Shown here: positions 10,626 through 62,865 of the stretch, piece after piece | Numbering within the stretch: position 1 is the first letter of the stretch | Layout: each line of letters opens with the position of its first letter | Source: Candidatus Saccharimonadota bacterium | Lineage (GTDB): Bacteria; Patescibacteriota; Saccharimonadia; Saccharimonadales; JAXHNE01 | DNA length: 64,000 nucleotides | Direction: 5' to 3' | Assembly (NCBI GenBank): GCA_034520885.1 | Contig: JAXHNE010000008.1 | Span: 100 to 64,099 of the forward strand | Notes under the pieces: model-generated | The model's database searches: none | What the model was told of the DNA's origin: nothing | Seen by the model: only the letters and a program-made list of their open reading frames with translations | Program-made: the position numbers and the translations under genes

Positions 10626-10631
10626 AAATCA

Positions 10632-32387: not shown

Positions 32388-32469
32388 ACATAACTTAGCT
32401 GTTATTCTGCGAACAATTTGTTCGGAAAGAGTTTGGAGCTCACTCGCCACCCATTTTTTACTTATTACT

Positions 32470-43637: not shown

Positions 43638-43642
43638 AGCAC

Positions 43643-44025: not shown

Positions 44026-44047
44026 ACGTATAATAATTGTAAATGAA

Positions 44048-49100: not shown

Positions 49101-49121
49101 TTTTCCTCCTTGCTTAGCTTT

Positions 49122-49613
49122 TTAGTTAACGTTTAACGTGCCGACCATGCCCAACTGGCGATGCTGGCCAATGTTACAGTAATATTCGTAACTTCCCGAA
49201 GCGTCTTTCGGTACGGTAAAAGTGACGGATGTGGTTTCGCCGGTGTTAGTGGTCTGGCTTCTTACGTCGAACTCGTCCAGGAACAAATTATGTTCGCCGC
49301 CGGAGTTCGTGAGGTTTAGCGTAATAGTGTCACCGGGGCTGGCAGTGATTTCCTCTACTGAAAATTCATAGTTACGCATATCGATGGTCAGTTCCTGATC
49401 AACGTCGGATGACTCTTCTTCGTCCTGAGGTTGGTTTTGCTCCGTGCCTTCGGTCGCTTCGCCCGGCGTTTCGTCCTCATCGGCCACTTCCCTTTGTTCC
49501 GAGGTGGTCGTGGTGGTGGCGACTTCTTCCTCATCCTGCATAACGAAGTACGCCGCACCTCCGCCAATTGCTAATAAAGCGATAATAATTCCAATAATTG
49601 CACCTTTTCTCAT
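49122..49613 (-). CDS. Membrane-anchored cupredoxin (type-1 blue copper) protein
   Basis: Putative ligand set: His in GGEHNLF, then C-x4-H-x4-M in YYCNIGQHRQLGM. Confidence 0.7.
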   Translation of the reverse strand: MRKGAIIGIIIALLAIGGGAAYFVMQDEEEVATTTTTSEQREVADEDETPGEATEGTEQNQPQDEEESSDVDQELTIDMRNYEFSVEEITASPGDTITLNLTNSGGEHNLFLDEFDVRSQTTNTGETTSVTFTVPKDASGSYEYYCNIGQHRQLGMVGTLNVN

Positions 49614-49724
49614 GACCCGTCCTCCTAATTACCGATAACATTATACGCCACACACCGTTTAGCGCAAAAACCATAACCTTGACTGTTTGACCACAAACGT
49701 ATTTGCTTGTGTTATGATGTGCTC

Positions 49725-50297
49725 ATGAGTGAAATGGGCTATCCGGCGCAATACAACGGTGAGTTTTTCGACTCGCAAACCGAGGCCGCGTGGGCGGCAT
49801 ATTTTGACGCTGCGGGTATAGAGTGGGAGCGCGAGCCGGAAACGTTCGAGCTTGCTCCGGGTTTTGTCTACACGCCTGATTTTTACGTTGGCCAATGGGA
49901 CAGCTACATGGAGGTGAAAAACGGCAATGCTTCACTCGACACATGCAAAAAACTACAAATACTCAGTGGTAAGCTTGGCCGGGCGAGCATTTTGGCGAAC
50001 GGCAAACCCCACAACCTCTCACTTTATATTTATGGGCCGGAAAGTATCCATAACGAGGTTCGGCCGGACGTATACGTGTTCGGGGAGGATTTTACTATTA
50101 CTGGGCAAAAGCTTTTCAAGCCGGCCGATTTACGGGATCGCTCACCGGCCCTTCGCCACTTTTGGGGGCTCTGGAATCAATCGCGTGAAGGCTGGACGAC
50201 CGATATAGACCCGGACGTCCGTCAAAAATCCAAAGACCGTAAACATGAACTGTCTAACGACCCCACGACCCTATACGACACTCCTTCGAAAAGCTAA
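49725..50297 (+). CDS. Hypothetical protein with PD-(D/E)xK nuclease-like N-terminal motif
   Basis: FDSQTEAAWAAYFDAAGIEWEREPETF..VYTPDF..YMEVK gives an E...PD...E-x-K pattern. Confidence 0.45.
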   Translation: MSEMGYPAQYNGEFFDSQTEAAWAAYFDAAGIEWEREPETFELAPGFVYTPDFYVGQWDSYMEVKNGNASLDTCKKLQILSGKLGRASILANGKPHNLSLYIYGPESIHNEVRPDVYVFGEDFTITGQKLFKPADLRDRSPALRHFWGLWNQSREGWTTDIDPDVRQKSKDRKHELSNDPTTLYDTPSKS

Positions 50298-50324
50298 GTA
50301 AGTGAAATTTTGAACCCCACAAGG

Positions 50325-50711
50325 CTATTTTTGCGGCTCGGAGTGGGCTTTGAGCCACTCGGCGATTTCTTCCACGCTTAATTTGTCAGTCGCCACCTTG
50401 ACGGCAAAATCTTCCAGATCGCCCTCGTTGACTTTAGTGTCTTCGCCGTTGATTTCTAAAAACGTTAAACCACTGAGCATCCCCGTACGCTTATTGCCGT
50501 CCACGAAAGGATGGTCGGCAATGATGCCACGAATGAGTGCGGCGGCTTTGTCGTGCGGGCTTTCGTAGATTTCCGCGCCAAAAACGGCTTGCGTTTGGGT
50601 GGCGACGACTGACTCCAGTCTCCCTTGATCGCGGACACCGCTTCCGCCTCCCGTTTCTTCGAGCAACAGCTCATAAATTGCGAGAATCTGCTCCAGGGTT
50701 AAGAACTTCAT
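50325..50711 (-). CDS. doc: Doc (death-on-curing) Fic-family toxin
   Basis: Doc-type Fic motif HPFVDGNKRTG. Confidence 0.9.
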   Translation of the reverse strand: MKFLTLEQILAIYELLLEETGGGSGVRDQGRLESVVATQTQAVFGAEIYESPHDKAAALIRGIIADHPFVDGNKRTGMLSGLTFLEINGEDTKVNEGDLEDFAVKVATDKLSVEEIAEWLKAHSEPQK

Positions 50712-50926
50712 CGCTCAGCAAGGTTTTTGAAGTCTTTTTTGTGTTTGCGGAGGATGTTTTGGGCGGCTTCCAACGCTTGATTGTCCGCTGCGCTGTTTTC
50801 GTTCAGTGCTTTTAAGGCTGCCATACGCAAAAAGTCGCTGCGGCTGGTGTATTGCTTTTTGGCCGCCGCGTCAATCTTTTTGACCAGTTCTTCGTCCATG
50901 GATACGTTAAATGTTTTCTTTGCCAT
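50708..50926 (-). CDS. Ribbon-helix-helix (CopG-like) antitoxin
   Basis: MAKKTFNVSMDEELVKKIDAAAKKQYTSRSDFLRMAAL. An ATGA overlap couples it to doc. Confidence 0.75.
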   Translation of the reverse strand: MAKKTFNVSMDEELVKKIDAAAKKQYTSRSDFLRMAALKALNENSAADNQALEAAQNILRKHKKDFKNLAER

Positions 50927-50962
50927 ACATAAATTATACAAAATTTGTATAAACCCCGTCAA

Positions 50963-51128
50963 CGCCCACCCTCACCTATCACCTATAACCAATCACCTAT
51001 TAATTCTCATCTATCATCCATTGCGACGAAGTCGCCTACCACCTTCCACCTTCCACCTTCCAACGTCTACCCTCTAACCTCTAACTTCTAGCATCTATCA
51101 ACTACTATCTATCACCAACTCCCGCTAC
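50963..51128 (+). repeat. Heptad-periodic G-poor tract
   Basis: CCACCTT CCACCTT CCACCTT CCAACGT CTACCCT CTAACCT CTAACTT CTAGCAT CTATCAA CTACTAT CTATCAC. It contains CCATTGCGACGAAGTCGC. Confidence 0.75.
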
Positions 51129-51243
51129 GCCTCCCAGTCTTCAATCGTAATCTTCCCATTCTCTTCAGTAACCACGACTTTCTGGTGCTCCCGCCAGGCC
51201 AGCTTGTTCATGATTTCTTTGGGAATGGTTACCATACAGTTTC
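51125..51243 (-). pseudogene. 3' fragment (last ~37 codons) of an AbrB/SpoVT-like gene
   Basis: Translates as YMVTIPKEIMNKLAWREHQKVVVTEENGKITIEDWEA*. It is clearly homologous to the intact gene at 54140-54322. It has no start codon or promoter. Confidence 0.7.
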
Positions 51244-51299
51244 AGTTGCGTGCTTTAGCTACTCAGAACACTGTTTTAAAAGGAGTAAGTTTAGTAGTT

Positions 51300-51328
51300 T
51301 TGACTATTAATTTTGTTCCAGCTATCAT
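51300..51328 (+). promoter_or_regulatory. Sigma70-type promoter TTGACT-17nt-TATCAT
   Basis: Read directly from the sequence, ~100 nt upstream of the precursor-peptide ORF. Confidence 0.45.
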
Positions 51329-51431
51329 GAATATGAAAACAAAAAGTTAAAACTCACCTGCTTAAATCAAGAAGGGAGGTGGATTTAACTTAAACTATTA
51401 GTTGTTAAATATCTTAAAATGGAGGGAGATT

Positions 51432-51656
51432 ATGAGCGCAGAAACACTGCTACGTTCAAGTGAAGAAGAAAAACTGCCGGAGGTTACAGGGGAGCAAGCG
51501 GCTTCGCTAGGTGAAACAGTTTTCTCGGCCTTGGCCGTAGATGCTGAATTGGCGACTAAAGGCGAAGACGGCGGATATGGTGGAGCGGAAAACTATGAGT
51601 TTACGAACTCCGTTACGCGGCTGGGCGATGGCCAAACTGTGCCCGACGAAAGATAA
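51432..51656 (+). CDS. Candidate graspetide (omega-ester/amide RiPP) precursor peptide, 74 aa
   Basis: GGAGGGA RBS 5 nt before the ATG. The leader is acidic. The C-terminal region ATKGEDGGYGGAENYEFTNSVTRLGDGQTVPDER is rich in Thr/Ser/Lys donors and Asp/Glu acceptors. It lies immediately upstream of the ATP-grasp ligase. Confidence 0.6.
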   Translation: MSAETLLRSSEEEKLPEVTGEQAASLGETVFSALAVDAELATKGEDGGYGGAENYEFTNSVTRLGDGQTVPDER

Positions 51657-51669
51657 CCAGGCGCGGTAA

Positions 51670-51696
51670 GGGTGGTTACTGTAGCCACCCTTTTTT
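51670..51696 (+). terminator. Intrinsic terminator/attenuator between precursor and ligase genes
   Basis: Stem GGGTGG / CCACCC followed by TTTTTT, ending 3 nt before the ligase ATG. Confidence 0.5.
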
Positions 51697-51699
51697 ATT

Positions 51700-52674
51700 A
51701 TGTCTGAAATCGCAATTTTTAGTACGAGTTTCGATCAGCCGACTTATGGGCCTGTGGCTTCCAAACTGCATGAGCGTGGCTACGAAACCTGGGTTTATAA
51801 AGCCGACAAGGTGCTCAGCGGCGAGGATGAATTAACAGTAAGGGTTAACGATGAAGGATTTGGTCTTGTCTATAACGGCGTTAGTCGAGTTTTAAGTGAC
51901 ACCGGCTGCGCTTGGTTTCGACATCCAGAAGTGTACGGATTGAATTATCCAGACAAAGCAAAGCAAATGAGTATTGAGCAAGAAACATCAAATTTGCAAG
52001 AATCATTTTGGCGACAAGTTCCTGACGAAGCTTGGCTGAATCATCCTCGGCAAATGCAGAAAGCGCAGGCAAAATTGTCTCAGTTAGTCTTAGCCCAGGA
52101 GCTGGGTTTTCACGTACCAGCAACAGTTGTCTCCAGTTCTTGGGAAGAAATTGATAATTTAAGTTCTTCTAAAGAATTTGAAGACATCATTGTGAAGATG
52201 CCAAGAGGGGTTTTACACGATTCGGATGGCGTGAGAGTTCTTTATGCAACAAGGCTTAATAAAGAAAGAAGAGTGTCACTACAGGAAAATAACCCGTTCC
52301 CTGCTTTCTATCAAGAATACATGACAAAGGCACGCGAATGGCGCCTCACAGTTGTTGGAGACGATGCTTTCGGAGCAGCAATTTACACAACCGAAGATGC
52401 GAAAGATGATTGGAGGCGGCATCAATTTGGTTCGGGTGTTCGTTTCGAGAAAGACGAGCTGCCCGATAAAGAAATTGATAGATGTATTAAATACTTACGA
52501 CACTTTAATTTGCTTTACGGAGCTTTTGACTTTGTAGAAGATCACGAGGGTGTACTAACATTTCTTGAATGTAATACAAATGGTCAATACCGTTGGCTGG
52601 AAGATCTTCTTGGGTTGCCGATCAGCGATGCCATTGTTTCGCAACTGGTGACAAAACACGAAAGTAACAAATAG
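51700..52674 (+). CDS. MdnC/MvdD-type ATP-grasp macrocyclase (graspetide ligase)
   Basis: Collinear by-eye matches to the microviridin ligase MdnC, listed as window/MdnC: CAWFRH/AVWYRR; AKLSQLVLAQELGFHVPATVVS/HKQLQLQVARQLGLLIPGTLTS; EWRLTVVGDDAFGAAI/ELRITIVGEQIFTAAI; DWRR/DWRK; LLYGAFDFV/LNYGAIDMI; FLECNTNGQYRWLE/FLEINPVGEFFWLE. Confidence 0.85.
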   Translation: MSEIAIFSTSFDQPTYGPVASKLHERGYETWVYKADKVLSGEDELTVRVNDEGFGLVYNGVSRVLSDTGCAWFRHPEVYGLNYPDKAKQMSIEQETSNLQESFWRQVPDEAWLNHPRQMQKAQAKLSQLVLAQELGFHVPATVVSSSWEEIDNLSSSKEFEDIIVKMPRGVLHDSDGVRVLYATRLNKERRVSLQENNPFPAFYQEYMTKAREWRLTVVGDDAFGAAIYTTEDAKDDWRRHQFGSGVRFEKDELPDKEIDRCIKYLRHFNLLYGAFDFVEDHEGVLTFLECNTNGQYRWLEDLLGLPISDAIVSQLVTKHESNK

Positions 52675-52675
52675 A

Positions 52676-53152
52676 CTACACTGGTTTATGCGTAGGTAGT
52701 TCAGTGATAAGTTGTTTTTGTCTGGGATGCCTAAGGAGTTTATTAAATGTAGCGTAGCTTACGAAACGGATCTTAATGTCAGCTCGGTGTAGCGCGGTAA
52801 ACACGCTTTGGTATGTATCTTTGCTAGTTGGTTTTACCGGTTTTTGGCTGACCATCTCATAATTACTGAGCGCTCCCTGTGGTGTTGGCTGGAAGTTATC
52901 GGCCGGTACAGTGTAGATTGCTCCGCCCTTGTCTTTTTCTTTGAACGCTTGCGGCGTGGAGCAAATCACAATGTTGGGTTCATTTTCCGGACTCATGAGC
53001 GTTGGCAGGCCTTTTGGAACCAGGTACATCAACGCCATTTTGTAGTTTTTGGTCGCGAAGACGTAATCACCGATGTACTCGTCGTTGCTTTTCGTCGGTT
53101 GCGGAGTAAGTTCACTCAGGTTTTTTTGCCCCGATGCATGGTACAAGTTCAT
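52676..53152 (-). CDS. Hypothetical 158-aa protein with H-Y-E ADP-ribosyltransferase-like motif pattern (speculative)
   Basis: MNLYHAS at the N-terminus (compare hYHGS/T). GDYVFATKNYKMALMY (compare the Y-x-F/S-A/T...Y...Y segment of PARP/diphtheria toxin). A later NYEMV has a candidate catalytic Glu. Confidence 0.5.
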   Translation of the reverse strand: MNLYHASGQKNLSELTPQPTKSNDEYIGDYVFATKNYKMALMYLVPKGLPTLMSPENEPNIVICSTPQAFKEKDKGGAIYTVPADNFQPTPQGALSNYEMVSQKPVKPTSKDTYQSVFTALHRADIKIRFVSYATFNKLLRHPRQKQLITELPTHKPV

Positions 53153-53167
53153 AAACTCATCATAACA

Positions 53168-53500
53168 AACCTCCCATCCCCCATCTTCTATCTACCACCT
53201 ATAACCTATAACCTCTAACCTATCACCTATTAACTATTATCTATCATCCATGAGTAACTCCCGTTACTCCTCCCATCCCCCATCTTCTATTTACCAACTT
53301 CCACCTTCCAACTTCCACTTATCACCTATAACCTATCACCCCTCACCTATTAACTATTATCTATCATCTATGAGTAACTCCCGTTACTCCTCCCATCCCC
53401 CATCTTCTATTTACCAACTTCCACCTTCCATCTTCCAACTTCCATCTTCCAACTTCTAACGTCTAACCTCTAACTTCTAGCATCTATTATCTATCATCCA
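53168..53500 (+). repeat. Longest heptad-periodic G-poor tract, containing a 120-bp internal tandem duplication
   Basis: CCTATAA CCTATAA CCTCTAA CCTATCA CCTATTA ACTATTA TCTATCA. The 53223-53310 segment repeats at 53343-53430, including the hairpin GAGTAACTCCCGTTACTC. Confidence 0.8.
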
Positions 53501-53582
53501 TTCGAGTCGTTGAAGACAGTAAGAGGCGAGAATCTACTAAACGCTCATGGTTACCAGTTAAATACGTTGTATATTTAAGTAA

Positions 53583-54143
53583 ATGAGTATATTTTCACCT
53601 AATACGGTAAACTTTCGAACCGATGTAAGGGCGCATAGGCAAAAGGCGGTTGATGTGGGTGTCTATGGGCGCCCAGTCCCGGAACGTGTTGATTCTGTCT
53701 TACTCGATGGCGAACCGGTGCGTTTTGAAAATCAAGATACGGTTGAACGGGTTTTTGGTGCCGCACACGAACTAGGGAAGCTTAAACGGCATCGAGCACC
53801 TGCGGATTCTTTTGGATTCGTGGCGTTATACGGTGGATACGTTGATATTAAAAATGTTCCCAGAAGATTTGATCGTTGGTTGGATATTTCGGTTAATGAG
53901 GATCCAATATCACCGTCAGATATTGATGACGGCGATACGGTTGCCATCGGAGCGCATTACCACGATATGAAAAGCCCCATGATCCGTCACGCGCTCGTGG
54001 CGGCCGAAACCAGTGAAGACATGATGTTTTTCCACATACTTGGAAGTGACGGACCGTTTGCCTTGTCCGGACTCAAGGAAGCGCTTGACACATATAAAAG
54101 CTCGAACGTCTACAATTTTGAAGAAATAAAACTTTTGGACTAA
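53583..54143 (+). CDS. Hypothetical protein
   Basis: 186-aa ORF with no recognised domain. Its 3' end overlaps the convergent AbrB-like gene by 4 nt. Confidence 0.5.
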   Translation: MSIFSPNTVNFRTDVRAHRQKAVDVGVYGRPVPERVDSVLLDGEPVRFENQDTVERVFGAAHELGKLKRHRAPADSFGFVALYGGYVDIKNVPRRFDRWLDISVNEDPISPSDIDDGDTVAIGAHYHDMKSPMIRHALVAAETSEDMMFFHILGSDGPFALSGLKEALDTYKSSNVYNFEEIKLLD

Positions 54144-54322
54144 CCGGACCAATCGGTAATTTTAACGGTCTTGCCGTCCAGTTCGACGACAACTTTTTGG
54201 TGTTCGCGCCAGCTCAGCTTGTTCATGATTTCTTTAGGAATAGTTACCATGTAGCTTTCGCCCTCACGGCCGGTTTTTTGTATTTTACGGATGTTTTCTT
54301 CACCCAAGTCTTGCCTGCTCAT
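54140..54322 (-). CDS. AbrB/SpoVT (MazE-like) swapped-hairpin DNA-binding protein, 60 aa
   Basis: YMVTIPKEIMNKLSWREHQKVVVELDGKTVKITDW. A GAAAGG RBS is present, and the palindrome lies 16 nt upstream of the ATG. Confidence 0.8.
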   Translation of the reverse strand: MSRQDLGEENIRKIQKTGREGESYMVTIPKEIMNKLSWREHQKVVVELDGKTVKITDWSG

Positions 54323-54338
54323 CTTTGCGCCTTTCTTT

Positions 54339-54362
54339 TGTTATATAACTAGTTATATAACA
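54339..54362. promoter_or_regulatory. 24-bp double palindrome TGTTATATAACTAGTTATATAACA (family copy 3 of 4), candidate operator/-10 region of the AbrB-like gene
   Basis: A perfect palindrome that overlaps TATAAC -10-like hexamers on both strands. Confidence 0.5.
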
Positions 54363-54380
54363 CCATGGTAGCAAAGATGT

Positions 54381-54602
54381 TTAGCTCGCGGGGTTTTCTC
54401 TCTCAAGCAGTGTGCCTTTGTTGTTGAATACGAATATTTCAGATTTGTGTTTAGAGGCGTCTTTGCGAGCCGAAGCGAGAGCTTCGTTCTTTGTATTAAA
54501 AAGCTTATTGGGATTAGTCTTAACATCGGCTTTGCGTACATACCAGCCCTTGCCGTTATGTGAATCGAGATGATTCATGTATACGGTATTTTTCGGGTCC
54601 AT
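54381..54602 (-). CDS. DUF2188-like small protein
   Basis: From the internal ATG: MDPKNTVYMNHLDSHNGKGWYVRKA...FNTKNEALASARKDA...IFVFNNKGTL. Confidence 0.55.
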   Translation of the reverse strand: MDPKNTVYMNHLDSHNGKGWYVRKADVKTNPNKLFNTKNEALASARKDASKHKSEIFVFNNKGTLLERENPAS

Positions 54603-54726
54603 CCTGCCTTCAAGCCGGCTAGTTATGGCAAATACGTAAAGGTTCAAGCTAGTTAAGTCGTCGCGCAAGTTGACAGCACACTTTGGAATGCTACTATAAG
54701 CTTAAGCTAAATAACGTAAAGCAAAT

Positions 54727-56187
54727 ATGGCCAAGAAGAAAACAAGTAAAAAAACCAAAGCTAAAAGGAGCAAAACCGTGGCTAAATCACGTGCTAAAAA
54801 AGTAAATCGTTCCAATCGTTCCAAACAAAAAAAGCAGAGCCTCCCCCAGAAATTTATGAACTTGCCCAAGGTCGCATTATTTGTCATTGCCTTCGGTCTC
54901 GTTGGCTTAGCAGGCCTAGCCTACACAAACGCGCAGCCAGACTACAACATGGCCCACATGCATTTAGACAAGGTAAATTCAATTAACGCCGCAAAAGTCA
55001 AAGAAACCGAAGGCAATAAACGTAACGCTCAAGTGGTAGAGGTGCCAAACTCGGCGACTTCTTCCAATTCGAAGGCTACCTTTTCAAGAGACGTGCCCAC
55101 GGGAAGCTGGCAAGCTTGCGCCATCGGCAAAGCCACCAAGGGGTCGCCCAGTGTCACGCTTCGTGGGCGGGAGTGGACTTCCCAGCATCAAAACGGCATA
55201 GACTTGGCTAAAACTACTTTTACGCTGGAACAATCCTCGGACTATCAAGAAATCGGCTGCATCACCGTTGATCACACCAATAGCTCTACTCTGGCCTTCT
55301 ACGTTGAAAATAACAGCCCTGACACTTCTTTGCGCGTTAGCATTATCGTGGTTAGCAAAGTCAATGACATTCCGGCTAGCGAAGTCAGTGTCTCGACCTC
55401 TTCAGCGAGTGAAAACGGCGAATTGACGTGGGCTCCACCACAACTGGATAATCCAACTACTATTGATCTCAACACCGAAAACTGGACAGTTAAACTCGAT
55501 GACAGCAAAGACTACATCCTTAACATGCCAGACGAGCCAGTCACTAGGGCGCTTGTCATTGTCGGTGGGCGCGATGTAGTGATGGTTGGTGGCGAGATTG
55601 CTATACCGCACCAGGGTAGCGACCCATCTATCTCGTCACGTACCGGGCTCAAGCTCAAGAATCAAAAAGGCACCGTACACATCGAAGGTCTGTTGATCCA
55701 CGGCAAGGATATTTCTGAAGGTATTCAGATTGACGCCGATGACGCGATCGTTCAATTACAAAACCTACGTGTTTGGAACCTTCACGCCAGAGACCAAGAC
55801 GGCTTTACTGATAATCACCCTGATGTTGTTCAGCCCTACGGTGGCGCTCAGGAATTGCGTATCGACATGCTTACCGGTGAATCCGACTACCAGGGCATGT
55901 TTTTGGTTGCTAACGCCGGTTCTGGCCCTAACGAGCTTGGAGCCGTAAAACTATCACGGATTAACCTTCACGCTACACCGACGACTCGCTATATGCTCTG
56001 GAAGTCAGGCGATTACCCGGTTACTACTAACGAAGTGTACGTTGATCGTCCTGATGGGCGGACGTGGGATAAAACCTTGCGCTATGTCGAGGACTTCCCT
56101 GACGTCAAGGAAGGTCAGCCAGCAAATGGCGACTTCGTCCCCGAGACTGCGGTTGGCCTAAACTACGAGTCACCCGGCTACAAGTAA
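54727..56187 (+). CDS. Membrane-anchored/secreted large hypothetical protein (Lys-rich N-tail, TM, beta-rich ectodomain)
   Basis: Contains the TM segment VALFVIAFGLVGLAGLAY. An alternative start is at 54856. No confident domain. Confidence 0.6.
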   Translation: MAKKKTSKKTKAKRSKTVAKSRAKKVNRSNRSKQKKQSLPQKFMNLPKVALFVIAFGLVGLAGLAYTNAQPDYNMAHMHLDKVNSINAAKVKETEGNKRNAQVVEVPNSATSSNSKATFSRDVPTGSWQACAIGKATKGSPSVTLRGREWTSQHQNGIDLAKTTFTLEQSSDYQEIGCITVDHTNSSTLAFYVENNSPDTSLRVSIIVVSKVNDIPASEVSVSTSSASENGELTWAPPQLDNPTTIDLNTENWTVKLDDSKDYILNMPDEPVTRALVIVGGRDVVMVGGEIAIPHQGSDPSISSRTGLKLKNQKGTVHIEGLLIHGKDISEGIQIDADDAIVQLQNLRVWNLHARDQDGFTDNHPDVVQPYGGAQELRIDMLTGESDYQGMFLVANAGSGPNELGAVKLSRINLHATPTTRYMLWKSGDYPVTTNEVYVDRPDGRTWDKTLRYVEDFPDVKEGQPANGDFVPETAVGLNYESPGYK

Positions 56188-56205
56188 GCCGTAATCCAGT
56201 TAGTC

Positions 56206-56233
56206 GTAGCGCCCGGATTTTAACGGGCGCTAC
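56206..56233 (+). terminator. Hairpin terminator candidate (weak T-tract)
   Basis: 10-bp stem GTAGCGCCCG / CGGGCGCTAC followed by TTGATT. Confidence 0.4.
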
Positions 56234-56342
56234 TTGATTAAAAGTTATTGGAAGCCCCCAGGCCAAACCGGAATGGAGAGAACCAGGCCGGACGGCAAAT
56301 CGAATTTCGTAGTTACCTATATGCTAAAAGCCAGCCTTTTTA

Positions 56343-56452
56343 GTTTTTGTATTTTACGGATGTTTTCTTCGCCTAAGTCCTGTCTGCTCATCTTTACGCC
56401 TTTCTTTTGTTATATAACTAGTCATATAACACCATGGTAGCAAAGATGTTTT
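56343..56452 (-). pseudogene. 5' fragment (first 16 codons) of an AbrB-like gene with RBS, palindrome (56408-56431, one mismatch) and upstream flank
   Basis: MSRQDLGEENIRKIQK is identical to the N-terminus of the 54322 gene. The ~110-nt block parallels 54276-54383. Confidence 0.7.
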
Positions 56453-56810
56453 TCTCCTGTTTCGTTGCCCGCTTTCAGCGGGGCGTGACGACCACCTTTT
56501 TGAGTCGGCAAAAAGGTGGGTAAAAAACCGACCCATGCGGCTTTGTCTTGATGGGCTCACCTGTCAAGCCTGACAACGGCCCTTGCGGAACTCCCGTTGG
56601 TCGGTCTCGCCGCTTTGTCTCATAGGAAGGCGGCTCAACTGGTCCTCGGGCGTTACTCGTTGTCAGTTTGACGTAGCTAGCCGGCGCAAAAACAAAAAGC
56701 AATATTTTTGAACAAGCCCTGAAGGCTACAAACCACGTTTCCTTCCGCAACGTATCTACGGATACGTCTTGTCAGGAGAACAAGATTTCTAGCTCATCAG
56801 AATCTTGGCT

Positions 56811-56874
56811 CAAAATTTATCACTTTGTCTTCACGCCGGCTATAGCCCTCAGGTAAAAGCCGAAATGGGAGTGC
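56811..56874. repeat. Direct repeat DR1 flanking the DUF218 gene
   Basis: CAAAATTTATCACTTTGTCTTCACGCCGGCTATAGCCCTCAGG...GCCGAAATGGGAGTGC. Confidence 0.7.
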
Positions 56875-57530
56875 TAAAGCAGATGCTTATCGTAGCCAGC
56901 TTCAACTAGTTTTTCGTAAGCCTGCCATACTTCGTCGGATATTTCCTGCTCAATTTGATAGCCTAGTTTAGGGTATTCTTTAATTCTTTGTAGGTCGCCT
57001 ACCATGATATTGATTGCAAAGTCAGCGTCGTGAGCCGGATCACTCAAGTAGTCCTCAAATGAAATATTTTGTGACGTTACTATAAATTCTGGCTGCGGGT
57101 TTGGCCACTGGGCTTTAAGCGTAGCAAAAGCGCGTCGTTGCATGTAAGGTTTCTGTGCCGCGATCAAGGAATTTATTTTTATACCATGTGATTTCACTAG
57201 CTCGTAGGAAAGTTTGATGTTTTCACCGGTGTTACTGGCTTTGTTTTCGACTAAAATGGCTTTGCTTGGTACTCCCTTTTGCTTGGCAATTTCAGCAAAA
57301 ACGTCTGCTTCAGGCCTTCCGTCAAAACCGCTCACTTCTTTGCCGACGCCCTCGTTGCCGCTGAATAGAATCCACGGAGCGTAGCCTTCTAAGAATAAAT
57401 CGCTTGCGTACTCCGCTACGCGCCGATCATGGCTGCCAAGTACCAAAATGAGGTCAACTTTCTTTAAATCATGATGTAGCTTGTGATAATCCCAAACGAT
57501 TTTAGCTGACTCAATCACTCCTGCGTTCAT
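56874..57530 (-). CDS. DUF218 / YdcF-family protein
   Basis: The LILVLGSHD...SGNEG...NTGEN pattern is characteristic of YdcF-like proteins. Confidence 0.8.
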   Translation of the reverse strand: MNAGVIESAKIVWDYHKLHHDLKKVDLILVLGSHDRRVAEYASDLFLEGYAPWILFSGNEGVGKEVSGFDGRPEADVFAEIAKQKGVPSKAILVENKASNTGENIKLSYELVKSHGIKINSLIAAQKPYMQRRAFATLKAQWPNPQPEFIVTSQNISFEDYLSDPAHDADFAINIMVGDLQRIKEYPKLGYQIEQEISDEVWQAYEKLVEAGYDKHLL

Positions 57531-57543
57531 AGACTAATACTAT

Positions 57544-57638
57544 CAAAATTTATCGTTTTGTCTTCGCACCGGCTATAGCCCTCAGGCGTGCCCGGTGAAC
57601 TTTGTTCTACTATCGGGAAAACCCGAAATGGGGTGCGC
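57544..57638. repeat. Direct repeat DR2 flanking the DUF218 gene (with 34-nt internal insertion)
   Basis: CAAAATTTATCGTTTTGTCTTCGCACCGGCTATAGCCCTCAGG[34 nt]ACCCGAAATGGGGTGCGC. Confidence 0.7.
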
Positions 57639-57798
57639 AGGGTCGGACCTTCCACACATAATTAGCTTGAAATGTAATTATTGGAACGGCTACCCCTGAC
57701 AAAAACCGCTTTTTACACACACTTTTTGACACTTAACCCAATCAGACCCTGCAAACCTAATTATTAAAGCTAAATCGCTACGCTGTCTTCACGAGTAG

Positions 57799-60621
57799 CT
57801 ATACGCCTTCGATGAAGGTTTCGATGAATTTGTTTAGCTTGGAGCTTATTCTTTCTACAATTGTTTTGCGCTTAAGCACGCTGGGCTGCTCGGCGAGCGT
57901 GTTGGCAATCTCATCTCCCCGCGGTTTGCGGCCGCTGTAGAGGTAGTTATCAATCAAACCCTGCAACTCCTCGCTCAAGACGCCTTCCTCGCGGCACATG
58001 GCTTCAAAAGCGGCAGCTTTTTCGTCGGTCCAAAAGCTTTCAAAGGTACCTTCTACATCGTCAGCATCAGAGATTTCGGGGATGTGTGATTCAATGAACT
58101 TTTCAATCAATTCGCGCTTGCTCCTGAGCGTTGCTTCGGAGTTGACAATATTTCGTATGCTCTTCTTGATGGATTCGGCTTGCTCCTCGTCAGCATCTAC
58201 TAATTTAGCCAGTAGGCGGATGATGTAGTCCACATTTATATCATCACGCCGGATGAGCTCCAGCTCAAAATCAACGTCTTCTAAAATCGACACCTTTTCC
58301 TTGGCTTGGTCGGATTTCACTTTATCGTAGATGTCCAGGTACTTACTCTTAAAATCTTCAAACGTCTGAGCATCAATAGCGGCATCTTCAAACGTAAAGT
58401 CGGTAAATGAGCGCAGTACGTTGCGCAGACGCATTACTTCACGAAAATGCTGCACAAACTCTAGTTGCTGATCTTCGCCAACTAGCTCGTCTACCCCGCT
58501 CGGGGTGGAGGCGAGATGTCGCATTTCCATGATTGCCTGGTTGAAGTTTTTCAGATAGGTCTCATACGGGTGCATAAAGATGGTTTCTTTAGCGTCTACA
58601 TTGCTAAATAGCTGAATGGCGTCGTCGGTATACTCTTTAAGATTACGAAACACGACGATATTTCCCTGGGATTTAGCGTCGCCCAAAATGCGATTAGTTC
58701 GCGAATAAGCCTGTAGCAACCCGTGATAACGCAGGTTTTTATCAACATAGAGTGTATTAAGCCTTGGGCTAAGCCGAAGCCTGGAGCATGTCCGCCGCTA
58801 CAGCAAAATATCGATCTCGTTATTTTTTACGCGCCGGGCAATATCGCGGTAGTAATGATAAAAGCTCTTGCTGTCTTTAGTGGTGTAGCTCGTGCCAAAC
58901 ATTTTGTTGTAGTCATTTATGTAGCTTTCTAGCCGGTCGCGACTATGTTTATCCAAGCTGCCGAGCGACAGTTGCGGGCCAGCGTCGTGCGCGAGCATTT
59001 CTGCTTTGTCGTCCTCGTTGGCGCTGTAGGTAAAAATTGTCGCGATTTTAAGCTTGCGATCTTTGTCAGCCTGTTTTTGTTTAAATAGCTCATAGTATTT
59101 GCACAACACATCTACGCTAGACACGGCAAAGATTGCGTTAAAGTCACGGGAGTGCGTTTTGCGATCATGGTTGGCCAAAATGTAATCAGTGATCTGCCCG
59201 AGTCGTTGTGGTGACTCCATTAATTCTTTGGTATCAAGAGCTTCTACTTCTATATCCTGTTCGTTTTTCGTATCTTTGCGTCTGTAGCGGCCAACATACT
59301 CCACGCTGAACTTCAGCACGTTTTCATCATTAATTGCATCGGTGATGACGTATTGGTGTAGGCGATCTCCAAATAAATCCTTGGTAGTCCGCTTGCCAAG
59401 TGCGTTGCCGGTGGCGTTATCGGCGAATATTGGTGTGCCGGTGAACCCAAACAGTTGTTTGTTATTAAAAAACTCTACAATTCGCTTGTGCGTTTCGCCA
59501 AACTGGCTGCGATGACATTCGTCAAAAATAAAGACGATCTTCTCATCTTTGTGCTCGTCCATCTTAAGCAAATGTTTTTGGTGCGTAATGGCGTTATTAA
59601 GCTTTTGGATGGTAGTAACGATCAGCTTGCTATCCGGATCGGCAAACTGCTTCACGAGCTGTTTGGTGTTGTCGGTAGTGTCCACGCTGTTTGCTTTGAA
59701 GTTATTGAACTCTTTGATTGTTTGCGTATCGAGGTCGTTTCGGTCTACCACGAACACAACTTTGTAAATATCCGGCAAGTCTACGAGAATTTGGCTGGCT
59801 TTAAAAGAGGTCAAAGTTTTGCCACTACCAGTTGTGTGCCAAATATAGCCGCCTTTGTTGCTGTGTTTTACGCGGTCTACCAGAGCTTCGACTGCGTAGT
59901 ATTGATACGGTCGCAGCGCCATCAGGGTTTTGGTTTCGGCTAGCACAATGTGCTTGGCAATCATTTTGCTAATGTGGCAGCGCTCTAGAAAACTTTCGGT
60001 AAATTCCGCAAGTTCGGTTATTTTGTGGTTGTCTTTGTCCGTCCAGTAGCTAGTGAACTTAAAGCCGGCTTTGCGGTTATTGGCGTAGTATTTGGTGTTT
60101 ACACCGTTACTAATTACAAATAGCTGGATGTACTGAAACAGCCCGTATGACGAATCGTAACTATGCTTTTGGTAGCGATGTGTCTGGTTAAAGGCTTCTT
60201 TTAATTCTAATCCCCGGCGTTTAAGCTCCACTTGCACCAGTGGTAAACCGTTTATCAGCAGCGTTACGTCGTAGCGGTTTTTGTAAGCCCCATGCATGGT
60301 GACTTGGCTAGTCACCTGGTATTGGTTTTGACACCATTCTTTTTGGTTAAAAAACTCTACATAAAAGTTCCCCTCATCACGCTTGAGCACGTATTTATCG
60401 CGCAGGGTCTGCGCTTTATCGAACACGTTACCTTTGCTCAGGTGATTGAGGATTTGCTGAAACTCTTTTTCGTTAAAGGTTGTTTGATTATGTTTTTCCA
60501 GCTGGGTTTTTAGGTTCGCGAGCAAATCTTTTTCTTCACGAATCGTTACACGTTCGTATTTCAAACCTTCAAGCTGCTTTATAAGGTTATTTTCTAGTGT
60601 TTGCTCGGATTGCGTGGTCAC
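57799..60621 (-). pseudogene. hsdR: Type I restriction enzyme R subunit HsdR, interrupted by in-frame TAG inside a scrambled motif V
   Basis: The N-terminal ORF has HTTGSGKT and FDECHRSQ. The C-terminal ORF starts at LQAYSRTNR (motif VI). Both ORFs are in the same frame, separated by a TAG at 58798-58800. Confidence 0.85.
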
Positions 60622-61262
60622 TTTGCGCCGATAATATCTTTAAATTTCTTTCCGATAGTAGTGATGCTAAGTTTTTCCATATCTTCTAGAGCTTTCTTTG
60701 CGTCATTCATATACTTGACTGGTGTGTAAGCAGCAAAATCTTCTTGTCGGCTCATGTACAATTTGTCAAATATTTCCATGCGTTGATTATAGTTTTTTAG
60801 CTGTGACTCTGTGTCCTGTTCGCCTGTATTGTCAAGGAAGTCCTTTGTTATTTCGGCAAACATCCTTTGTTTGTTGTACCTGATTTGTCTTATATCATCG
60901 TCAAATGATGCAGCACTTGCTTTTATTGACTCATCCAAGACTTTTGCGTTCTGATAAAAATCTGTGATTGTCTCCCATTCGTCTTTATCAAAGTTACTAG
61001 AGAATAAATGGCTGTATTTTGACCAAGAATCATCCCGAATTATATTCAGGTCAAGGTTGAGACTACCTCGCCTTGTTGCTTCTTTAAGCTTTGGGATACA
61101 GCTCTCAATGTGCTGAATTTCTAAGAAAATAGAATTTGCTGCAGCGACCTTCCGGTCATTCTTCTGACGTCTATAAATTAAGAACGCGAATAGCCCTACA
61201 ATAAACGTTACGAAAGTTTGTAGAAAGTTTGAATTTAGAAAATTTACGAAAATTTCCATCAT
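60618..61262 (-). CDS. Hypothetical 214-aa protein with N-terminal TM helix, embedded between hsdS and hsdR
   Basis: TM segment FLQTFVTFIVGLFAFLIY, then a helical soluble part. A GTGA overlap couples it to the hsdR start, and an ATGA overlap couples it to the upstream ORF. Confidence 0.6.
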   Translation of the reverse strand: MMEIFVNFLNSNFLQTFVTFIVGLFAFLIYRRQKNDRKVAAANSIFLEIQHIESCIPKLKEATRRGSLNLDLNIIRDDSWSKYSHLFSSNFDKDEWETITDFYQNAKVLDESIKASAASFDDDIRQIRYNKQRMFAEITKDFLDNTGEQDTESQLKNYNQRMEIFDKLYMSRQEDFAAYTPVKYMNDAKKALEDMEKLSITTIGKKFKDIIGAK

Positions 61263-61570
61263 TTACCGTCCTTGTTTTCAAACATGGATAGTTTATCAAT
61301 TGTTTTAATATCAAGTTTGTTAAGCATTTCCAGCATAGCGGACATTGATTCTACCTCGTCTTTTGTAGGTATTTTTTTGTTTTCTATTTCTGCAAGTTTT
61401 GATTTCATTGCTTCAATTAGCTTCATTGCTTGCTCAAATCTCTTCGCTAATTTTTCGTATTGTTCTTTGCTCGGCGAAGAGGGTGTGTCCAACATTTCAA
61501 GTGTTGCTTTTAGGCTTCCGTACTCTTCGTCTATTTTGCCGCTCTGTTTAAGGTCATCGTAATCACTCAT
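61259..61570 (-). CDS. Hypothetical 103-aa acidic/Lys-rich coiled-coil protein, embedded in the R-M operon
   Basis: It starts 20 nt after the hsdS stop. An ATGA overlap couples it to the 214-aa ORF. Confidence 0.55.
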   Translation of the reverse strand: MSDYDDLKQSGKIDEEYGSLKATLEMLDTPSSPSKEQYEKLAKRFEQAMKLIEAMKSKLAEIENKKIPTKDEVESMSAMLEMLNKLDIKTIDKLSMFENKDGK

Positions 61571-61590
61571 ATGAATCTCCTTTGCTTAAA

Positions 61591-62865
61591 TTATATAAAC
61601 ATCTGCTGGAGGAGGGATTTTTTGAATTTCTTGGCTTGTTCCAGCTTCTTCTCCTCTAATTCTATTTTAGCATCCAAGCTTTTTAAGAAGTCGGCGATTT
61701 TCTGCTGTTCTTCAAGTACTGGCATTTTAACCTTGGTATTCTTGGCTCCGTCAATTGTGTATGTGGCGACTGTGGTAATCGACGCATTATCAGCCATCTG
61801 TTTTTGTATAAACCGAGTTTGAAGCGCCTGGAAGAGAAACTTTGGATCTAACTTTTCCGATTTCCTAAACCACAAGACATTACCATCTTTGAAATAAAAC
61901 TTATCATCATTATCAACCAAATACGCCGATCCGATACTACCTACCCCAGTGACAAGCATATCTCCAGGCTTCGGTGTGCCATATTTTTTGGATAGCTCAT
62001 CGTATAGGTTTTCTGAAATAAATATAGGGGTTCTGAACGGCTTACCTTGTGCCAAATTGATGATCTCTCTAGTCCTATAGAAAGGCACACCTGATTGTTG
62101 CCAGTCTTTCTGTAGAACTCTTTTGCTAGATCCAATTTCCATTACCCCCCCTAGCTTTTTTTCTTGCCAGGCGGGTAAGGGTTTGCCGTTGTCGTCTTTG
62201 AAGCGAATTTCGGGCGTCTGTACTGAGCTTGTCGAAGGAAAGATTTTTTGCATGATGCCTTTTTTGTATTTTTTCAGCAGCTCCACCTTTTTATCAATCG
62301 CAGAAACCTTATCATCAACAGTAGATAAAAACCCCGCAATTTTCTCTTGTTCATCTTTGGTTGGAAGAGCAAATTTCATTCGCTTGAGGTGTGTAGGGCC
62401 AAAATGATGTAGCACTGCTCCTGTGCTCATAATCTTAGCTTGTCGTTGAAAGACCGGAGAGGTTAGTAGCTGTTTTAGATATTTTTTCTCAGAAATATTA
62501 GTTGGACGAAAGCGGATTATACCAGTGTAGGCAACGGAGCCAACAGTATCACTGTCGACTTCACTTACGTTGCCAAGCGTTCCGCTAGTCGTGACCAGCA
62601 TATCGCCAGTTTTCAGTCTGAAATGACTCCATTTTTCATCAACTTTACTTGGATCAAGATAGTTACACCCTTCAAGTGTAACTGATTGTCCAGAGAGTCC
62701 ACTTAATCTGATTAGTGGCACGCCGTCATCGTGAAAATCTTTTGCTAAAATTCCCGGTCCTTCTTGAAAATCAGCAATGTTTGGAAGCATTTCTTCTTCC
62801 CACTCTCCATTAAACCCCGGAAACCTCAGTTTTGGCACTTTTCTGGTTTTTGTATCAGCAGTCAT
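61591..62865 (-). CDS. hsdS: Type I restriction-modification specificity subunit HsdS (two target-recognition domains)
   Basis: N-terminus VPKLRFPGFNGEWEE. Each half ends in a conserved helical spacer: KKVELLKKYKKGIMQKIF and KKLEQAKKFKKSLLQQMF. Confidence 0.9.
   Translation of the reverse strand: MTADTKTRKVPKLRFPGFNGEWEEEMLPNIADFQEGPGILAKDFHDDGVPLIRLSGLSGQSVTLEGCNYLDPSKVDEKWSHFRLKTGDMLVTTSGTLGNVSEVDSDTVGSVAYTGIIRFRPTNISEKKYLKQLLTSPVFQRQAKIMSTGAVLHHFGPTHLKRMKFALPTKDEQEKIAGFLSTVDDKVSAIDKKVELLKKYKKGIMQKIFPSTSSVQTPEIRFKDDNGKPLPAWQEKKLGGVMEIGSSKRVLQKDWQQSGVPFYRTREIINLAQGKPFRTPIFISENLYDELSKKYGTPKPGDMLVTGVGSIGSAYLVDNDDKFYFKDGNVLWFRKSEKLDPKFLFQALQTRFIQKQMADNASITTVATYTIDGAKNTKVKMPVLEEQQKIADFLKSLDAKIELEEKKLEQAKKFKKSLLQQMFI

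What the first reader, a model, noticed from the sequence alone, without database searches (positions are those of the whole stretch)
51125..56452. An AbrB/SpoVT-like gene apparently split by a ~5.1-kb block that carries its own intact paralog
Two fragments of one small gene lie 5.1 kb apart in the same orientation.

- The 3' part (51125-51243) encodes YMVTIPKEIMNKLAWREHQKVVVTEENGKITIEDWEA*.
- The 5' part (56343-56452) has codons 1-16, MSRQDLGEENIRKIQK, plus the RBS, the 24-bp palindrome and ~20 nt of upstream flank.

Both are homologous to the intact 60-aa gene at 54140-54322 and its promoter. Only ~7 codons are missing between the fragments. The intervening block (51244-56342) contains the graspetide pair, an ART-like ORF, two hypothetical genes, a DUF2188-like gene, a large secreted protein and the intact paralog. 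It has no recombinase. The simplest reading is insertion, or homology-driven replacement, into a resident AbrB-like gene by a cargo block that brings a replacement copy. That would be a recombinase-free, gene-targeted island.
Basis: partly seen in the sequence, partly recalled or inferred. Interest (0 to 1): 0.7.

Follow-up and report, generated by a model that had tools for sequence, protein, structure and literature searches.

The report
Orphaned ends of an AbrB-like gene
In a Saccharibacteria genome, a leftover front end and a leftover back end of a small regulator gene flank 5 kb of accessory genes and one intact copy of that gene; this is a real recombination scar of a broadly familiar kind, but whether one insertion made it cannot be shown, because no close relative has been sequenced.

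Summary
An intact 60-aa AbrB/MazE/SpoVT-like gene lies at 54140-54322 (-).

- A 5' orphan at 56344-56456 carries the promoter, the 24-bp palindrome, the RBS and codons 1-16. It is 93-94% identical to the intact copy.
- A 3' orphan at 51125-51238 carries codons 25-60 and the stop. It is 83-86% identical over 65-72 nt.
- Almost all coding differences are synonymous, so both pieces come from once-functional genes and were truncated recently.
- Contigs from a separate assembly are 100% identical and span both junctions, so chimeric assembly is unlikely.

The "one block split one gene" reading is only partly supported. The block has no recombinase and no terminal inverted or direct repeats. Its composition is mixed. 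The neighbouring DUF218 gene is also flanked by direct repeats. A distant relative has two full tandem copies around a cargo gene.

I favour recombination anchored on the gene's own homology, in a lineage known to take up DNA. In this reading cargo was added on each side, the old gene ends were pushed outward, and one copy stayed intact, as in Rhs/CDI/T6SS end displacement or e14 at icd. A single illegitimate insertion and decay of tandem paralogs remain open.

No close relative exists in the collections searched, so the empty-site test could not be run. Interest is moderate to low.

The parts
56344..56456 (-). 5' orphan of the AbrB-like gene. It holds about 65 nt of promoter region, the 24-bp palindrome (56408-56431, one mismatch), the RBS and codons 1-16. 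It then reads into 8 unrelated codons and a stop.
   Evidence: It is 93% identical to 54275-54387 (D4), or 94.4% over 108 nt with E=7e-43. The 4 coding differences are all synonymous. Logan contig L007 spans it.
54140..54322 (-). Intact 60-aa AbrB/MazE/SpoVT-like gene (NCBI MDZ7786263.1). Its promoter/operator lies at 54323-54387, with the perfect palindrome at 54339-54362.
   Evidence: PF04014 at 30.8 bits, cutoff 24.7. There are weak matches to solved archaeal AbrB-family regulators 5itm and 2l66. Four close homologues exist.
51125..51238 (-). 3' orphan: codons 25-60 plus the stop (36-aa ORF, annotated MDZ7786258.1). It has no promoter or RBS. Its C-terminal tail is of the 'TEENGKITI' type seen in P0003 and P0004.
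   Evidence: It is 83% identical over 72 nt to 54186-54257 (D5). Codons 25-46 match at 56/66 nt, with 8 synonymous differing codons and 1 non-synonymous. tblastn gives 83% identity to P0003. Logan contig L008 spans it.
54381..56343 (.). Cargo segment A, between the 5' orphan and the intact gene. It holds the DUF2188 gene (54381-54668, -), a 486-aa protein with a Lys-rich N-terminus and a hydrophobic segment (54727-56187, +), that gene's terminator hairpin, and 107 nt of unique sequence.
   Evidence: the 107 nt has no other copy. GC3 is 0.51-0.54.
51239..54139 (.). Cargo segment B, between the intact gene and the 3' orphan.
- 186-aa ORF (53583-54143, +), which overlaps the AbrB stop by 4 nt
- three ~120-nt heptamer-array units (53170-53503)
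- DUF6886 gene (52676-53152, -)
- graspetide-type ATP-grasp gene (51700-52674, +)
- precursor (51432-51656, +) with its own promoter (51300-51328)
   Evidence: GC3 is 0.375-0.52, against 0.56-0.63 for core genes.
50974..51121 (-). Hairpin and heptamer-repeat array directly after the 3' orphan's stop codon, followed by the RHH-Doc promoter. It is homologous to the arrays at 53170-53503 and 32440-32670.
   Evidence: (D1, D2). The motif GGGAGGNGTARCGGGAGTT occurs only at 51117-51135, 53256-53274 and 53376-53394, with 0.13 expected by chance.
56452..56700 (-). 'X' element: a ~230-nt structured intergenic repeat immediately upstream of the 5' orphan's promoter. In L001 and L004 the same element lies downstream of the AbrB gene and its array.
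   Evidence: Alignments. nhmmer finds at least 3 copies in L001. Two-sequence folding shows 10 of 50 pairs with compensatory changes. There is no Rfam match.
56810..57632 (-). DUF218 gene (56874-57530), flanked by ~60-90-nt direct repeats at 56810-56869 and 57543-57632. It is a third cargo bracketed by imperfect direct repeats in the same locus.
   Evidence: (D6 at 91%, D12 at 89%).
50325..50962 (-). RHH antitoxin and Doc/Fic toxin pair, forming the flank on the 3'-orphan side. It is syntenic with L001, where an intact AbrB gene lies upstream of RHH-Fic.
57799..60621 (-). Type I restriction hsdR (split in the window), forming the flank on the 5'-orphan side. It is syntenic with L004, where hsdR is followed 52 nt later by an intact AbrB gene.

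Best explanation
The two pieces are orphaned ends of an AbrB-like regulator gene. They were left behind when accessory DNA was added on each side of the gene by recombination anchored on the gene's own homology, and one copy of the gene stayed intact throughout.

**Shown**
- One intact gene, one 5' piece and one 3' piece, all in direct orientation. Each piece forms an imperfect direct repeat with the matching part of the intact gene (113 nt at 93%; 72 nt at 83%).
- These repeats bracket cargo A (DUF2188 gene and 486-aa protein) and cargo B (186-aa ORF, arrays, DUF6886 gene, graspetide genes).
- Both pieces derive from functional genes.
- No mobility gene and no transposon-type ends.

**Inferred**
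- DNA taken up by a naturally competent Saccharibacterium paired with the resident gene on one side and joined illegitimately on the other (homology-facilitated illegitimate recombination), or a small circle integrated by a single crossover.
- An event anchored in the promoter/5' part brought a new 3' end plus cargo B. It pushed the resident 3' end (codons 25-60, with its hairpin, array and RHH-Doc) downstream.
- A mirror-image event anchored in the 3' part brought cargo A plus a promoter/5' end. It pushed the resident promoter and codons 1-16 upstream.
- Both orphans can therefore still be pieces of the one original resident gene, and the present intact gene is a mosaic that was never interrupted.

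The gene product is most likely a small autoregulated DNA-binding protein that binds the 24-bp palindrome. The orphans are probably inert, apart from one spare operator.
For: **Repeat geometry**
- The repeats are as described above.
- Recombination between each pair would cleanly remove cargo A or cargo B and leave hsdR-X-P-AbrB-array-RHH-Doc. That matches the single-gene contexts of L004 and L001.

**Origin of the pieces**
- Differences to the intact copy are almost all synonymous. The repeats therefore reflect divergence between functional alleles, not decay of a dead duplicate.

**Same pattern nearby and elsewhere**
- DUF218 next door is flanked by 60-90-nt direct repeats.
- L038, a distant Patescibacterium, has two tandem full copies that are about 96% identical from -52 to about codon 45. 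Their tails and downstream cargo differ: DUF3800 versus a Dam methyltransferase gene.
- L014 has two copies 3.3 kb apart.

**Composition**
- The block is heterogeneous: ATP-grasp GC3 0.375, 186-aa ORF 0.43, 486-aa protein 0.54.
- The 3' orphan is core-like (0.68). The intact copy is lower (0.56).

**No autonomous mobility**
- No recombinase or transposase domain.
- No terminal inverted or direct repeats above chance.

**Literature**
- Saccharibacteria are naturally competent and integrate DNA by homologous recombination (PMC10633639).
- Homology-anchored illegitimate joining and displaced orphan 3' ends are documented or proposed for T6SS, Rhs and CDI loci (PMC5361080; PMC3240628).
Against: - Two events are needed. 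Their illegitimate junctions, at codon 16 and codon 24/25, lie only 24 nt apart without overlapping. I estimate a chance of about 0.1-0.2 for that. A single insertion predicts it directly.
- No donor, intermediate (A only or B only) or empty allele has been seen.
- 5'-end displacement is less documented than 3'-end displacement.
- The anchors are short and diverged (about 70-140 nt at 83-94%).
- The extra 'AbrB-tail' relics in the arrays may just be array sequence. A similar string occurs in the array at 32.5 kb, far from any AbrB gene.
Confidence: 0.45

Rival explanations
1. One illegitimate, homology-independent insertion of a contiguous 5.1-kb segment (A, intact paralog, B) landed in a resident AbrB gene between codons 16 and 25, with loss of about 24 nt. 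The event was tolerated because the insert supplies a working copy.
For: - The fragments are co-oriented and nearly complementary, with no overlap.
- Their coding divergence from the intact copy is statistically the same (4/48 vs 10/66, p=0.39).
- Both were recently functional.
- The flanks match single-gene contexts in L004 and L001.
- It needs a single event.
Against: - A random insert would have to hit a 183-nt gene and also carry that gene's paralog. Nothing mechanistic links the two, and I could find no homology-driven single event that yields this gene order.
- There is no target duplication and there are no terminal repeats.
- The block's composition is mixed.
- The same direct-repeat bracketing occurs around DUF218.
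- No uninterrupted allele appears among 5.8 billion protein clusters.
Confidence: 0.22
2. Decay of a tandem paralog array. The locus once held three full AbrB-like copies in tandem with cargo between them, as L038 holds two. Two independent deletions then removed the 3' part of the first copy and the promoter/5' part of the third. On this reading the fragments are not halves of one gene.
For: - Tandem full copies around cargo exist in L038, and paired copies exist in L014 and in L022/L023.
- The C-terminal tail of the 3' piece is of a different type from the intact copy. The 5' piece is closest to the intact copy (44/48 nt, against 39/48 or fewer for any orthologue).
- Overall identity differs between the two pieces (8/113 vs 12/72 differences, p=0.05).
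Against: - It needs two recent, independent truncations that happen to be nearly complementary.
- Neither fragment shows any decay (no frameshifts, almost only synonymous differences).
- The closest relatives (L001, L002, L004) have a single copy at the locus.
Confidence: 0.22
3. Assembly artefact. The MAG contig is chimeric at repeats, and the fragments are mis-joined pieces of paralogs from different strains.
For: - The region is rich in repeats.
- Logan contigs break at 51015-51035, 53252-53401, 54332-54662 and 56508-56536.
- hsdR differs between the MAG and the Logan assembly.
Against: - Logan contigs, built by a different assembler, are 100% identical to the window. They run straight through both junctions: L008 across 51238-51244 and L007 across 56342-56344.
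- By reading the alignment, the longest exact run shared between the repeat copies is under about 30 nt.
Confidence: 0.03

Closest known systems
C-terminal (3'-end) displacement with orphan fragments at Rhs, CDI and T6SS effector loci, attributed to homology-facilitated illegitimate recombination (PMC5361080 and the references it cites)
   Same: - A conserved part of a gene acts as the homologous anchor.
- The incoming module brings a new 3' end plus cargo.
- The old 3' end is kept downstream in the same orientation.
- No dedicated recombinase is involved.
- The lineage is naturally transformable.
   Different: - The gene here is a 60-aa DNA-binding regulator, not a large polymorphic toxin.
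- The cargo is not an immunity gene.
- A 5' orphan is present as well, so displacement would be two-sided.
- There is only one example, and no population data.
e14 / phage 21 integration into icd of E. coli, and islands that target the 3' ends of tRNA or tmRNA genes (from my own knowledge)
   Same: - The element carries a substitute portion of the target gene, so the gene stays intact.
- A displaced partial copy remains at the far end of the element.
- The two copies differ mostly at synonymous sites.
   Different: - Those elements encode a site-specific integrase and have a defined att core.
- No integrase or att-like core was found here.
- The repeats here are 72-113 nt and 83-94% identical.
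Homology-facilitated illegitimate recombination in naturally transformable bacteria (Acinetobacter, S. pneumoniae, P. stutzeri; see PMC3240628)
   Same: - A one-sided homologous anchor with an illegitimate junction at the other end.
- Recombinase-free gain of foreign DNA next to the anchor.
   Different: - It is demonstrated experimentally with anchors usually of 150 nt or more.
- The junction microhomologies cannot be checked here without the donor sequence.
Minimal mobile elements of Neisseria: cargo exchanged between conserved flanking genes by transformation and homologous recombination (from my own knowledge)
   Same: - Cargo with no mobility genes.
- Spread depends on flanking homology in a competent species.
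   Different: - Minimal mobile elements sit between two different intact conserved genes.
- They do not leave partial copies of a gene.
Integron gene cassettes
   Same: - Small cargo units stacked in one locus.
- Structured repeats lie between genes: the X element, the arrays and the repeats around DUF218.
   Different: - There is no integron integrase and no attC-type sites.
- The genes are in mixed orientation.

Membership tests
AbrB/MazE/SpoVT (PF04014) DNA-binding domain proteins | Sequence match to the swapped-hairpin domain above the curated threshold | tested here: met
   The intact gene scores 30.8 bits against a cutoff of 24.7, over residues 21-55. TIGR01439 scores 19.9 bits, below its cutoff. 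There are weak profile matches to solved archaeal AbrB-family regulators.
AbrB/MazE/SpoVT (PF04014) DNA-binding domain proteins | DNA binding, here to the palindromic operator upstream of its own gene | not testable with these tools
   - A 24-bp perfect palindrome lies 18 nt upstream of the ATG.
- Its half-sites change symmetrically in L004.
- Long lineage-specific palindromes precede most homologues across Patescibacteria.

This is consistent with autoregulation, but binding has not been shown.
Type II toxin-antitoxin antitoxin (MazE/VapB-like) | An adjacent, co-transcribed toxin gene | tested here: not met
   - No co-oriented gene follows the intact copy. A convergent 186-aa ORF overlaps its stop codon.
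- There is no conserved neighbour family across 26 loci.
Integrase-mediated island that restores its target gene (e14/icd or tRNA-island type) | A tyrosine or serine recombinase encoded at one end | tested here: not met
   No recombinase domain was found in any ORF from 49.7 to 57.5 kb with Pfam, NCBIfam, PHROGs or PADLOC. The only related hit is a weak PD-(D/E)xK-like match at 49707-50297.
Integrase-mediated island that restores its target gene (e14/icd or tRNA-island type) | Direct repeats of part of the target gene at both ends, with the target left intact | tested here: met
   Repeats of 113 nt (93%) bracket cargo A and of 72 nt (83%) bracket cargo B, and the gene between them is intact.
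Transposon / IS element | Transposase, terminal inverted repeats and target-site duplication | tested here: not met
   - There is no transposase.
- The best inverted or direct match between the block ends is no better than in shuffled sequence.
- About 24 nt of the target is missing rather than duplicated.
End displacement by homology-facilitated illegitimate recombination (Rhs/CDI/T6SS-type orphan arrays) | An orphan gene end in the same orientation beside an intact copy, with homology confined to the conserved part and a divergent tail | tested here: met
   The 3' orphan shares codons 25-46 with the intact copy (85%) but has a different tail type. L038 shows the same pattern: a conserved 5' two-thirds and a divergent tail.
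End displacement by homology-facilitated illegitimate recombination (Rhs/CDI/T6SS-type orphan arrays) | Polymorphism among related strains that shows stepwise gain, and microhomology at the illegitimate junction | not testable with these tools
   No relative closer than about 80% DNA identity in the gene itself was found. The best non-self hit to a neighbouring CHAP/LysM protein is 62%.
End displacement by homology-facilitated illegitimate recombination (Rhs/CDI/T6SS-type orphan arrays) | Host capable of natural transformation and RecA-type recombination | not tested
   Taken from the literature for cultivated Saccharibacteria (PMC10633639). The competence genes of this MAG were not examined.
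Integron cassette array | IntI integrase, attI and attC sites, co-oriented cassettes | tested here: not met
   There is no integrase and the genes are in mixed orientation. The intergenic repeats (X element, arrays) have no Rfam match.

The most novel reading that the evidence does not exclude
In naturally competent Patescibacteria, this small AbrB-like gene, together with its lineage-specific palindromic operator, serves as a general recombinase-free landing pad. On this reading accessory modules (often restriction-modification or other defence genes) travel with a partial or whole copy of the gene. They integrate by homology at the resident copy, stack on both sides of it, and always leave one working regulator. 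That would make it a gene-anchored cassette system distinct from integrons and integrase-borne islands.
Probability: 0.1. Interest if true: 0.65.

Novelty: new member of a known kind. Interest (0 to 1): 0.35.

Why it matters
How ultrasmall, host-dependent Patescibacteria gain accessory genes is poorly understood. They carry few classical mobile elements but are naturally competent.

A locus where cargo is bracketed by partial copies of a resident gene, with no recombinase, is a concrete candidate footprint of gene gain by transformation plus homology-anchored recombination. If the pattern recurs at this gene family, it would give a testable rule for where accessory DNA lands in these genomes.

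On present evidence it is a single recombination scar, and its history cannot be reconstructed.

Tried and rejected
**Empty-site search**
- The AbrB protein search found only 5 sequences, with no uninterrupted T-type allele from this lineage.
- GTDB representative genomes gave only relatives at 47-57% identity. JGI metagenomes gave 44-58%.
- A CHAP/LysM anchor protein 3 kb away has a best non-self hit of 62%, on 1-kb contigs.
- Exact-protein look-ups returned only Logan contigs of one sample, identical to the window, or nothing.
- The test could not be done.

**Same cargo next to AbrB elsewhere**
- tblastx of L001, L002 and L004 against the window shows no shared cargo.
- The 186-aa ORF has no homologue other than itself.

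**Other leads**
- Phage origin: no relatives in IMG/VR and no informative PHROG hits.
- Terminal repeats or target duplication at the block ends: not above shuffled controls.
- An 18/21 similarity between the sequence just upstream of the 3' piece (51242-51262) and the end of X (56456-56476) would have meant a separate promoter deletion. Its score of about 20 is within the range of shuffles (mean 18, maximum 29), so I dropped it.
- X as a known RNA: no Rfam family matches.
- TA-antitoxin reading: no partner toxin here or across the family.
- L002 versus L003 as a polymorphic junction: they are the same sequence.
- 'AbrB-tail relics' in the arrays: the 19-mer is specific. A similar purine-rich string in the unrelated array at 32.5 kb makes homology uncertain, so I treat this as suggestive only.

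Full report
**Source.** The window comes from a Candidatus Saccharibacteria MAG contig of 105.6 kb. The intact gene is NCBI MDZ7786263.1 and the 3' piece is annotated as MDZ7786258.1.

**Observation**

All three copies lie on the minus strand.
- The intact gene (54140-54322) encodes MSRQDLGEENIRKIQKTGREGESYMVTIPKEIMNKLSWREHQKVVVELDGKTVKITDWSG. It matches PF04014 above threshold.
- The 5' piece (56344-56456) is 93-94% identical to 54275-54387. It covers about 65 nt upstream, the 24-bp palindrome (one mismatch), the RBS and codons 1-16. After codon 16 it reads into unrelated sequence and stops after 8 more codons.
- The 3' piece (51125-51238) is 83-86% identical to the intact copy over 65-72 nt. 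It runs from codon 25 to the stop.
- Codons 17-24 (24 nt) are missing between the pieces.
- tblastn finds no other copy in the window.

**The pieces were recently functional**
- The 5' piece differs from the intact copy at 4 of 48 coding nucleotides, all synonymous.
- The 3' piece differs over codons 25-46 at 10 of 66 nucleotides, in 8 synonymous codons and one Ser/Ala codon.
- Under random mutation these patterns have P of about 0.001-0.003 and P<=4e-4.
- Both pieces therefore diverged from the intact copy while encoding protein, and were truncated recently.
- The two coding divergences do not differ (p=0.39).
- The C-terminal tail of the 3' piece (TEENGKITIEDWEA) is of the type found in P0003 and P0004. 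The intact copy's tail (ELDGKTVKITDWSG) is of the P0002 type.

**Assembly**

Logan contigs of SRR26473340 are 100% identical to the window and tile it:

| Contig | Window coordinates |
|---|---|
| L006 | 49119-51035 |
| L008 | 51015-53252 |
| L044 | 53401-54332 |
| L007 | 54662-56536 |
| L005 | 56508-60157 |

Both junctions lie inside contigs. The contigs break only at repeats. L005 differs from the window in hsdR, so the two assemblies are not copies of each other. A chimera is unlikely.

**Contents and surroundings**
- Cargo A holds the DUF2188 gene and a 486-aa protein.
- Cargo B holds a 186-aa ORF convergent with the intact gene and overlapping it by 4 nt, three ~120-nt units of a 7-nt-period array, the DUF6886 gene, a graspetide-type ATP-grasp gene and its precursor.
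- No recombinase or transposase domain occurs in or around the block.
- The block ends share no inverted or direct repeat above chance.
- GC3 is 0.56-0.63 in the neighbouring core genes, 0.68 in the 3' piece, 0.56 in the intact gene, 0.51-0.54 in cargo A and 0.375-0.52 in cargo B. The block is compositionally mixed.
- The flanks are an RHH-Doc toxin-antitoxin pair on one side. On the other are a DUF218 gene, a type I hsdR and hsdS.
- The whole right third of the window is a variable, lower-GC region.

**Relatives**
- The protein search found only four close full-length homologues plus the fragment.
- L004 has hsdR followed 52 nt later by an intact gene with a T-type tail.
- L001 has an intact gene followed by two genes and then RHH-Fic.
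- The window's two flanks therefore match single-gene contexts elsewhere. That fits one ancestral gene between hsdR and RHH-Doc.
- These genomes are distant: 75-82% DNA identity within the gene and little outside it.
- GTDB representatives and JGI metagenomes add only homologues at 44-58% identity.
- A neighbouring CHAP/LysM protein has no hit above 62%.

**The gene family**
- Homologues with the ENIRKIQ and WREHQKVV motifs occur across Patescibacteria.
- They are stand-alone, with no conserved neighbour and no toxin partner.
- Nearly all are preceded by a long perfect palindrome of lineage-specific sequence.
- In L004 the half-sites change symmetrically.
- This points to a small autoregulated DNA-binding protein.
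- The window's palindrome also lies upstream of gltX and at 10603.
- Several homologues sit beside restriction-modification genes.

**Why I do not accept the single-insertion reading as it stands**
- A homology-independent insertion would have to hit a 183-nt gene while carrying that gene's paralog.
- I could construct no homology-driven single event (double crossover, Campbell integration of a circle with a full copy, or break repair from a paralogous template) that gives the order 5' piece, cargo, intact gene, cargo, 3' piece.
- Each cargo is bracketed by an imperfect direct repeat of part of the gene. This is the product expected when incoming DNA is anchored by homology on one side and joined illegitimately on the other, or when a circle carrying a partial copy integrates by one crossover.
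- The adjacent DUF218 gene is bracketed in the same way by 60-90-nt repeats.
- In L038 two full tandem copies are about 96% identical from -52 to about codon 45, with different tails. They precede different cargo.
- Saccharibacteria are naturally competent and recombine incoming DNA (PMC10633639).
- Homology-anchored joining is reported to be orders of magnitude more frequent than fully illegitimate insertion. It has been proposed for orphan 3' ends at T6SS, Rhs and CDI loci (PMC5361080, PMC3240628).
- In the stepwise version both orphans can still be pieces of the same original gene, and the intact gene was never interrupted.

The two junctions are only 24 nt apart and do not overlap. A single insertion predicts this. 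Two independent events would give it about 10-20% of the time by my estimate. I therefore keep the single insertion at about 0.2, decay of a tandem paralog array at about 0.2 and an artefact at 0.03, and I give the stepwise homology-anchored model 0.45.

**Verdict.** This is a real recombination scar at a small regulator gene in an accessory-gene region of a Saccharibacterium. It is recombinase-free and gene-associated, and closest in kind to end displacement or target-restoring integration. Its exact history cannot be resolved without closer relatives or read-level data.

Noticed in passing
window 50974-51121, 53170-53503, 32440-32670 (- strand sense): These are purine-rich arrays with a 7-nt period (GGTGATAG, GGAAGGT and AGAGGTT types) that follow gene 3' ends. 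Each ~120-nt unit starts with a small hairpin plus ATGGATGATAGAT and ends in an SD-like GGGAGG. The hairpin shows compensatory changes between copies. Similar short arrays follow genes in L001 and L004. Their function is unknown.
   Followed up: partly
window 56452-56700 (-); L001 10252-10483, 13209-13467, 8913-9069; L004 4884-5005: The 'X' element is a ~230-nt structured intergenic repeat with no Rfam match.
- L001 has several full or partial copies after successive genes, close to a Y1 (IS200/RAYT-like) transposase gene.
- It may be a REP-like mobile repeat or a small RNA.
- Ten of 50 predicted pairs show compensatory changes, but only two sequences were compared.
   Followed up: partly
window 54339-54362, 56408-56431, 32322-32349, 10601-10649; loci L009-L043 upstream of AbrB homologues: Almost every member of this Patescibacteria-wide AbrB-like family is preceded by a long perfect palindrome whose sequence differs between lineages. 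In the window the same palindrome also lies 54 nt upstream of gltX and at 10603. This suggests a small regulon.
   Followed up: partly
L036 2815-3685; L038 10001-12435; L013; L004; window 57799-62865: AbrB-like homologues often sit beside restriction-modification genes.
- L036: 11 nt upstream of a TaqI-like endonuclease gene.
- L038: upstream of a Dam methyltransferase gene.
- Next to hsdS in L013, and next to hsdR in L004 and the window.

A controller-protein-like role with an AbrB fold is conceivable.
   Followed up: partly
window 56810-56869 and 57543-57632: The DUF218 gene (56874-57530; GC3 0.44) is bracketed almost exactly by 60-90-nt imperfect direct repeats. It looks like a separately acquired cassette.
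   Followed up: partly
window 58719-58803 versus L005: hsdR is split into two ORFs in the window but is continuous in the Logan contig. The difference is a ~35-nt patch. In the window this patch is the inverted complement of 59282-59307, which fits a quasi-palindrome template-switch mutation, strain variation or a consensus error.
   Followed up: partly
window 24768-25148: Two ~150-nt tandem copies upstream of tRNA-Glu carry the tRNA's 5' half, with an insert, and a T-arm-like segment. They may be tRNA-derived repeats or unusual tRNA-like genes. ARAGORN and Rfam call only the last copy.
   Followed up: no
window 41161-41460 and 41812-42111: A 300-nt direct repeat, 100% identical and 651 nt apart, lies inside a coding region. 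It is either a very recent duplication or an assembly artefact.
   Followed up: no
window 49707-50297 (+): A 196-aa ORF beside the Doc toxin gene has a PD-(D/E)xK-like motif (YTPDF...MEVK) and weak PHROG matches to a Holliday-junction resolvase family (E=1.5e-5). It is the only nuclease-like gene near the locus.
   Followed up: no
window 43567-43638 and 43955-44026: tRNA-Ser has a 76%-identical 72-nt relative 388 nt away that the tRNA finders do not call. It may be a tRNA pseudogene or the remnant of an integration site.
   Followed up: no
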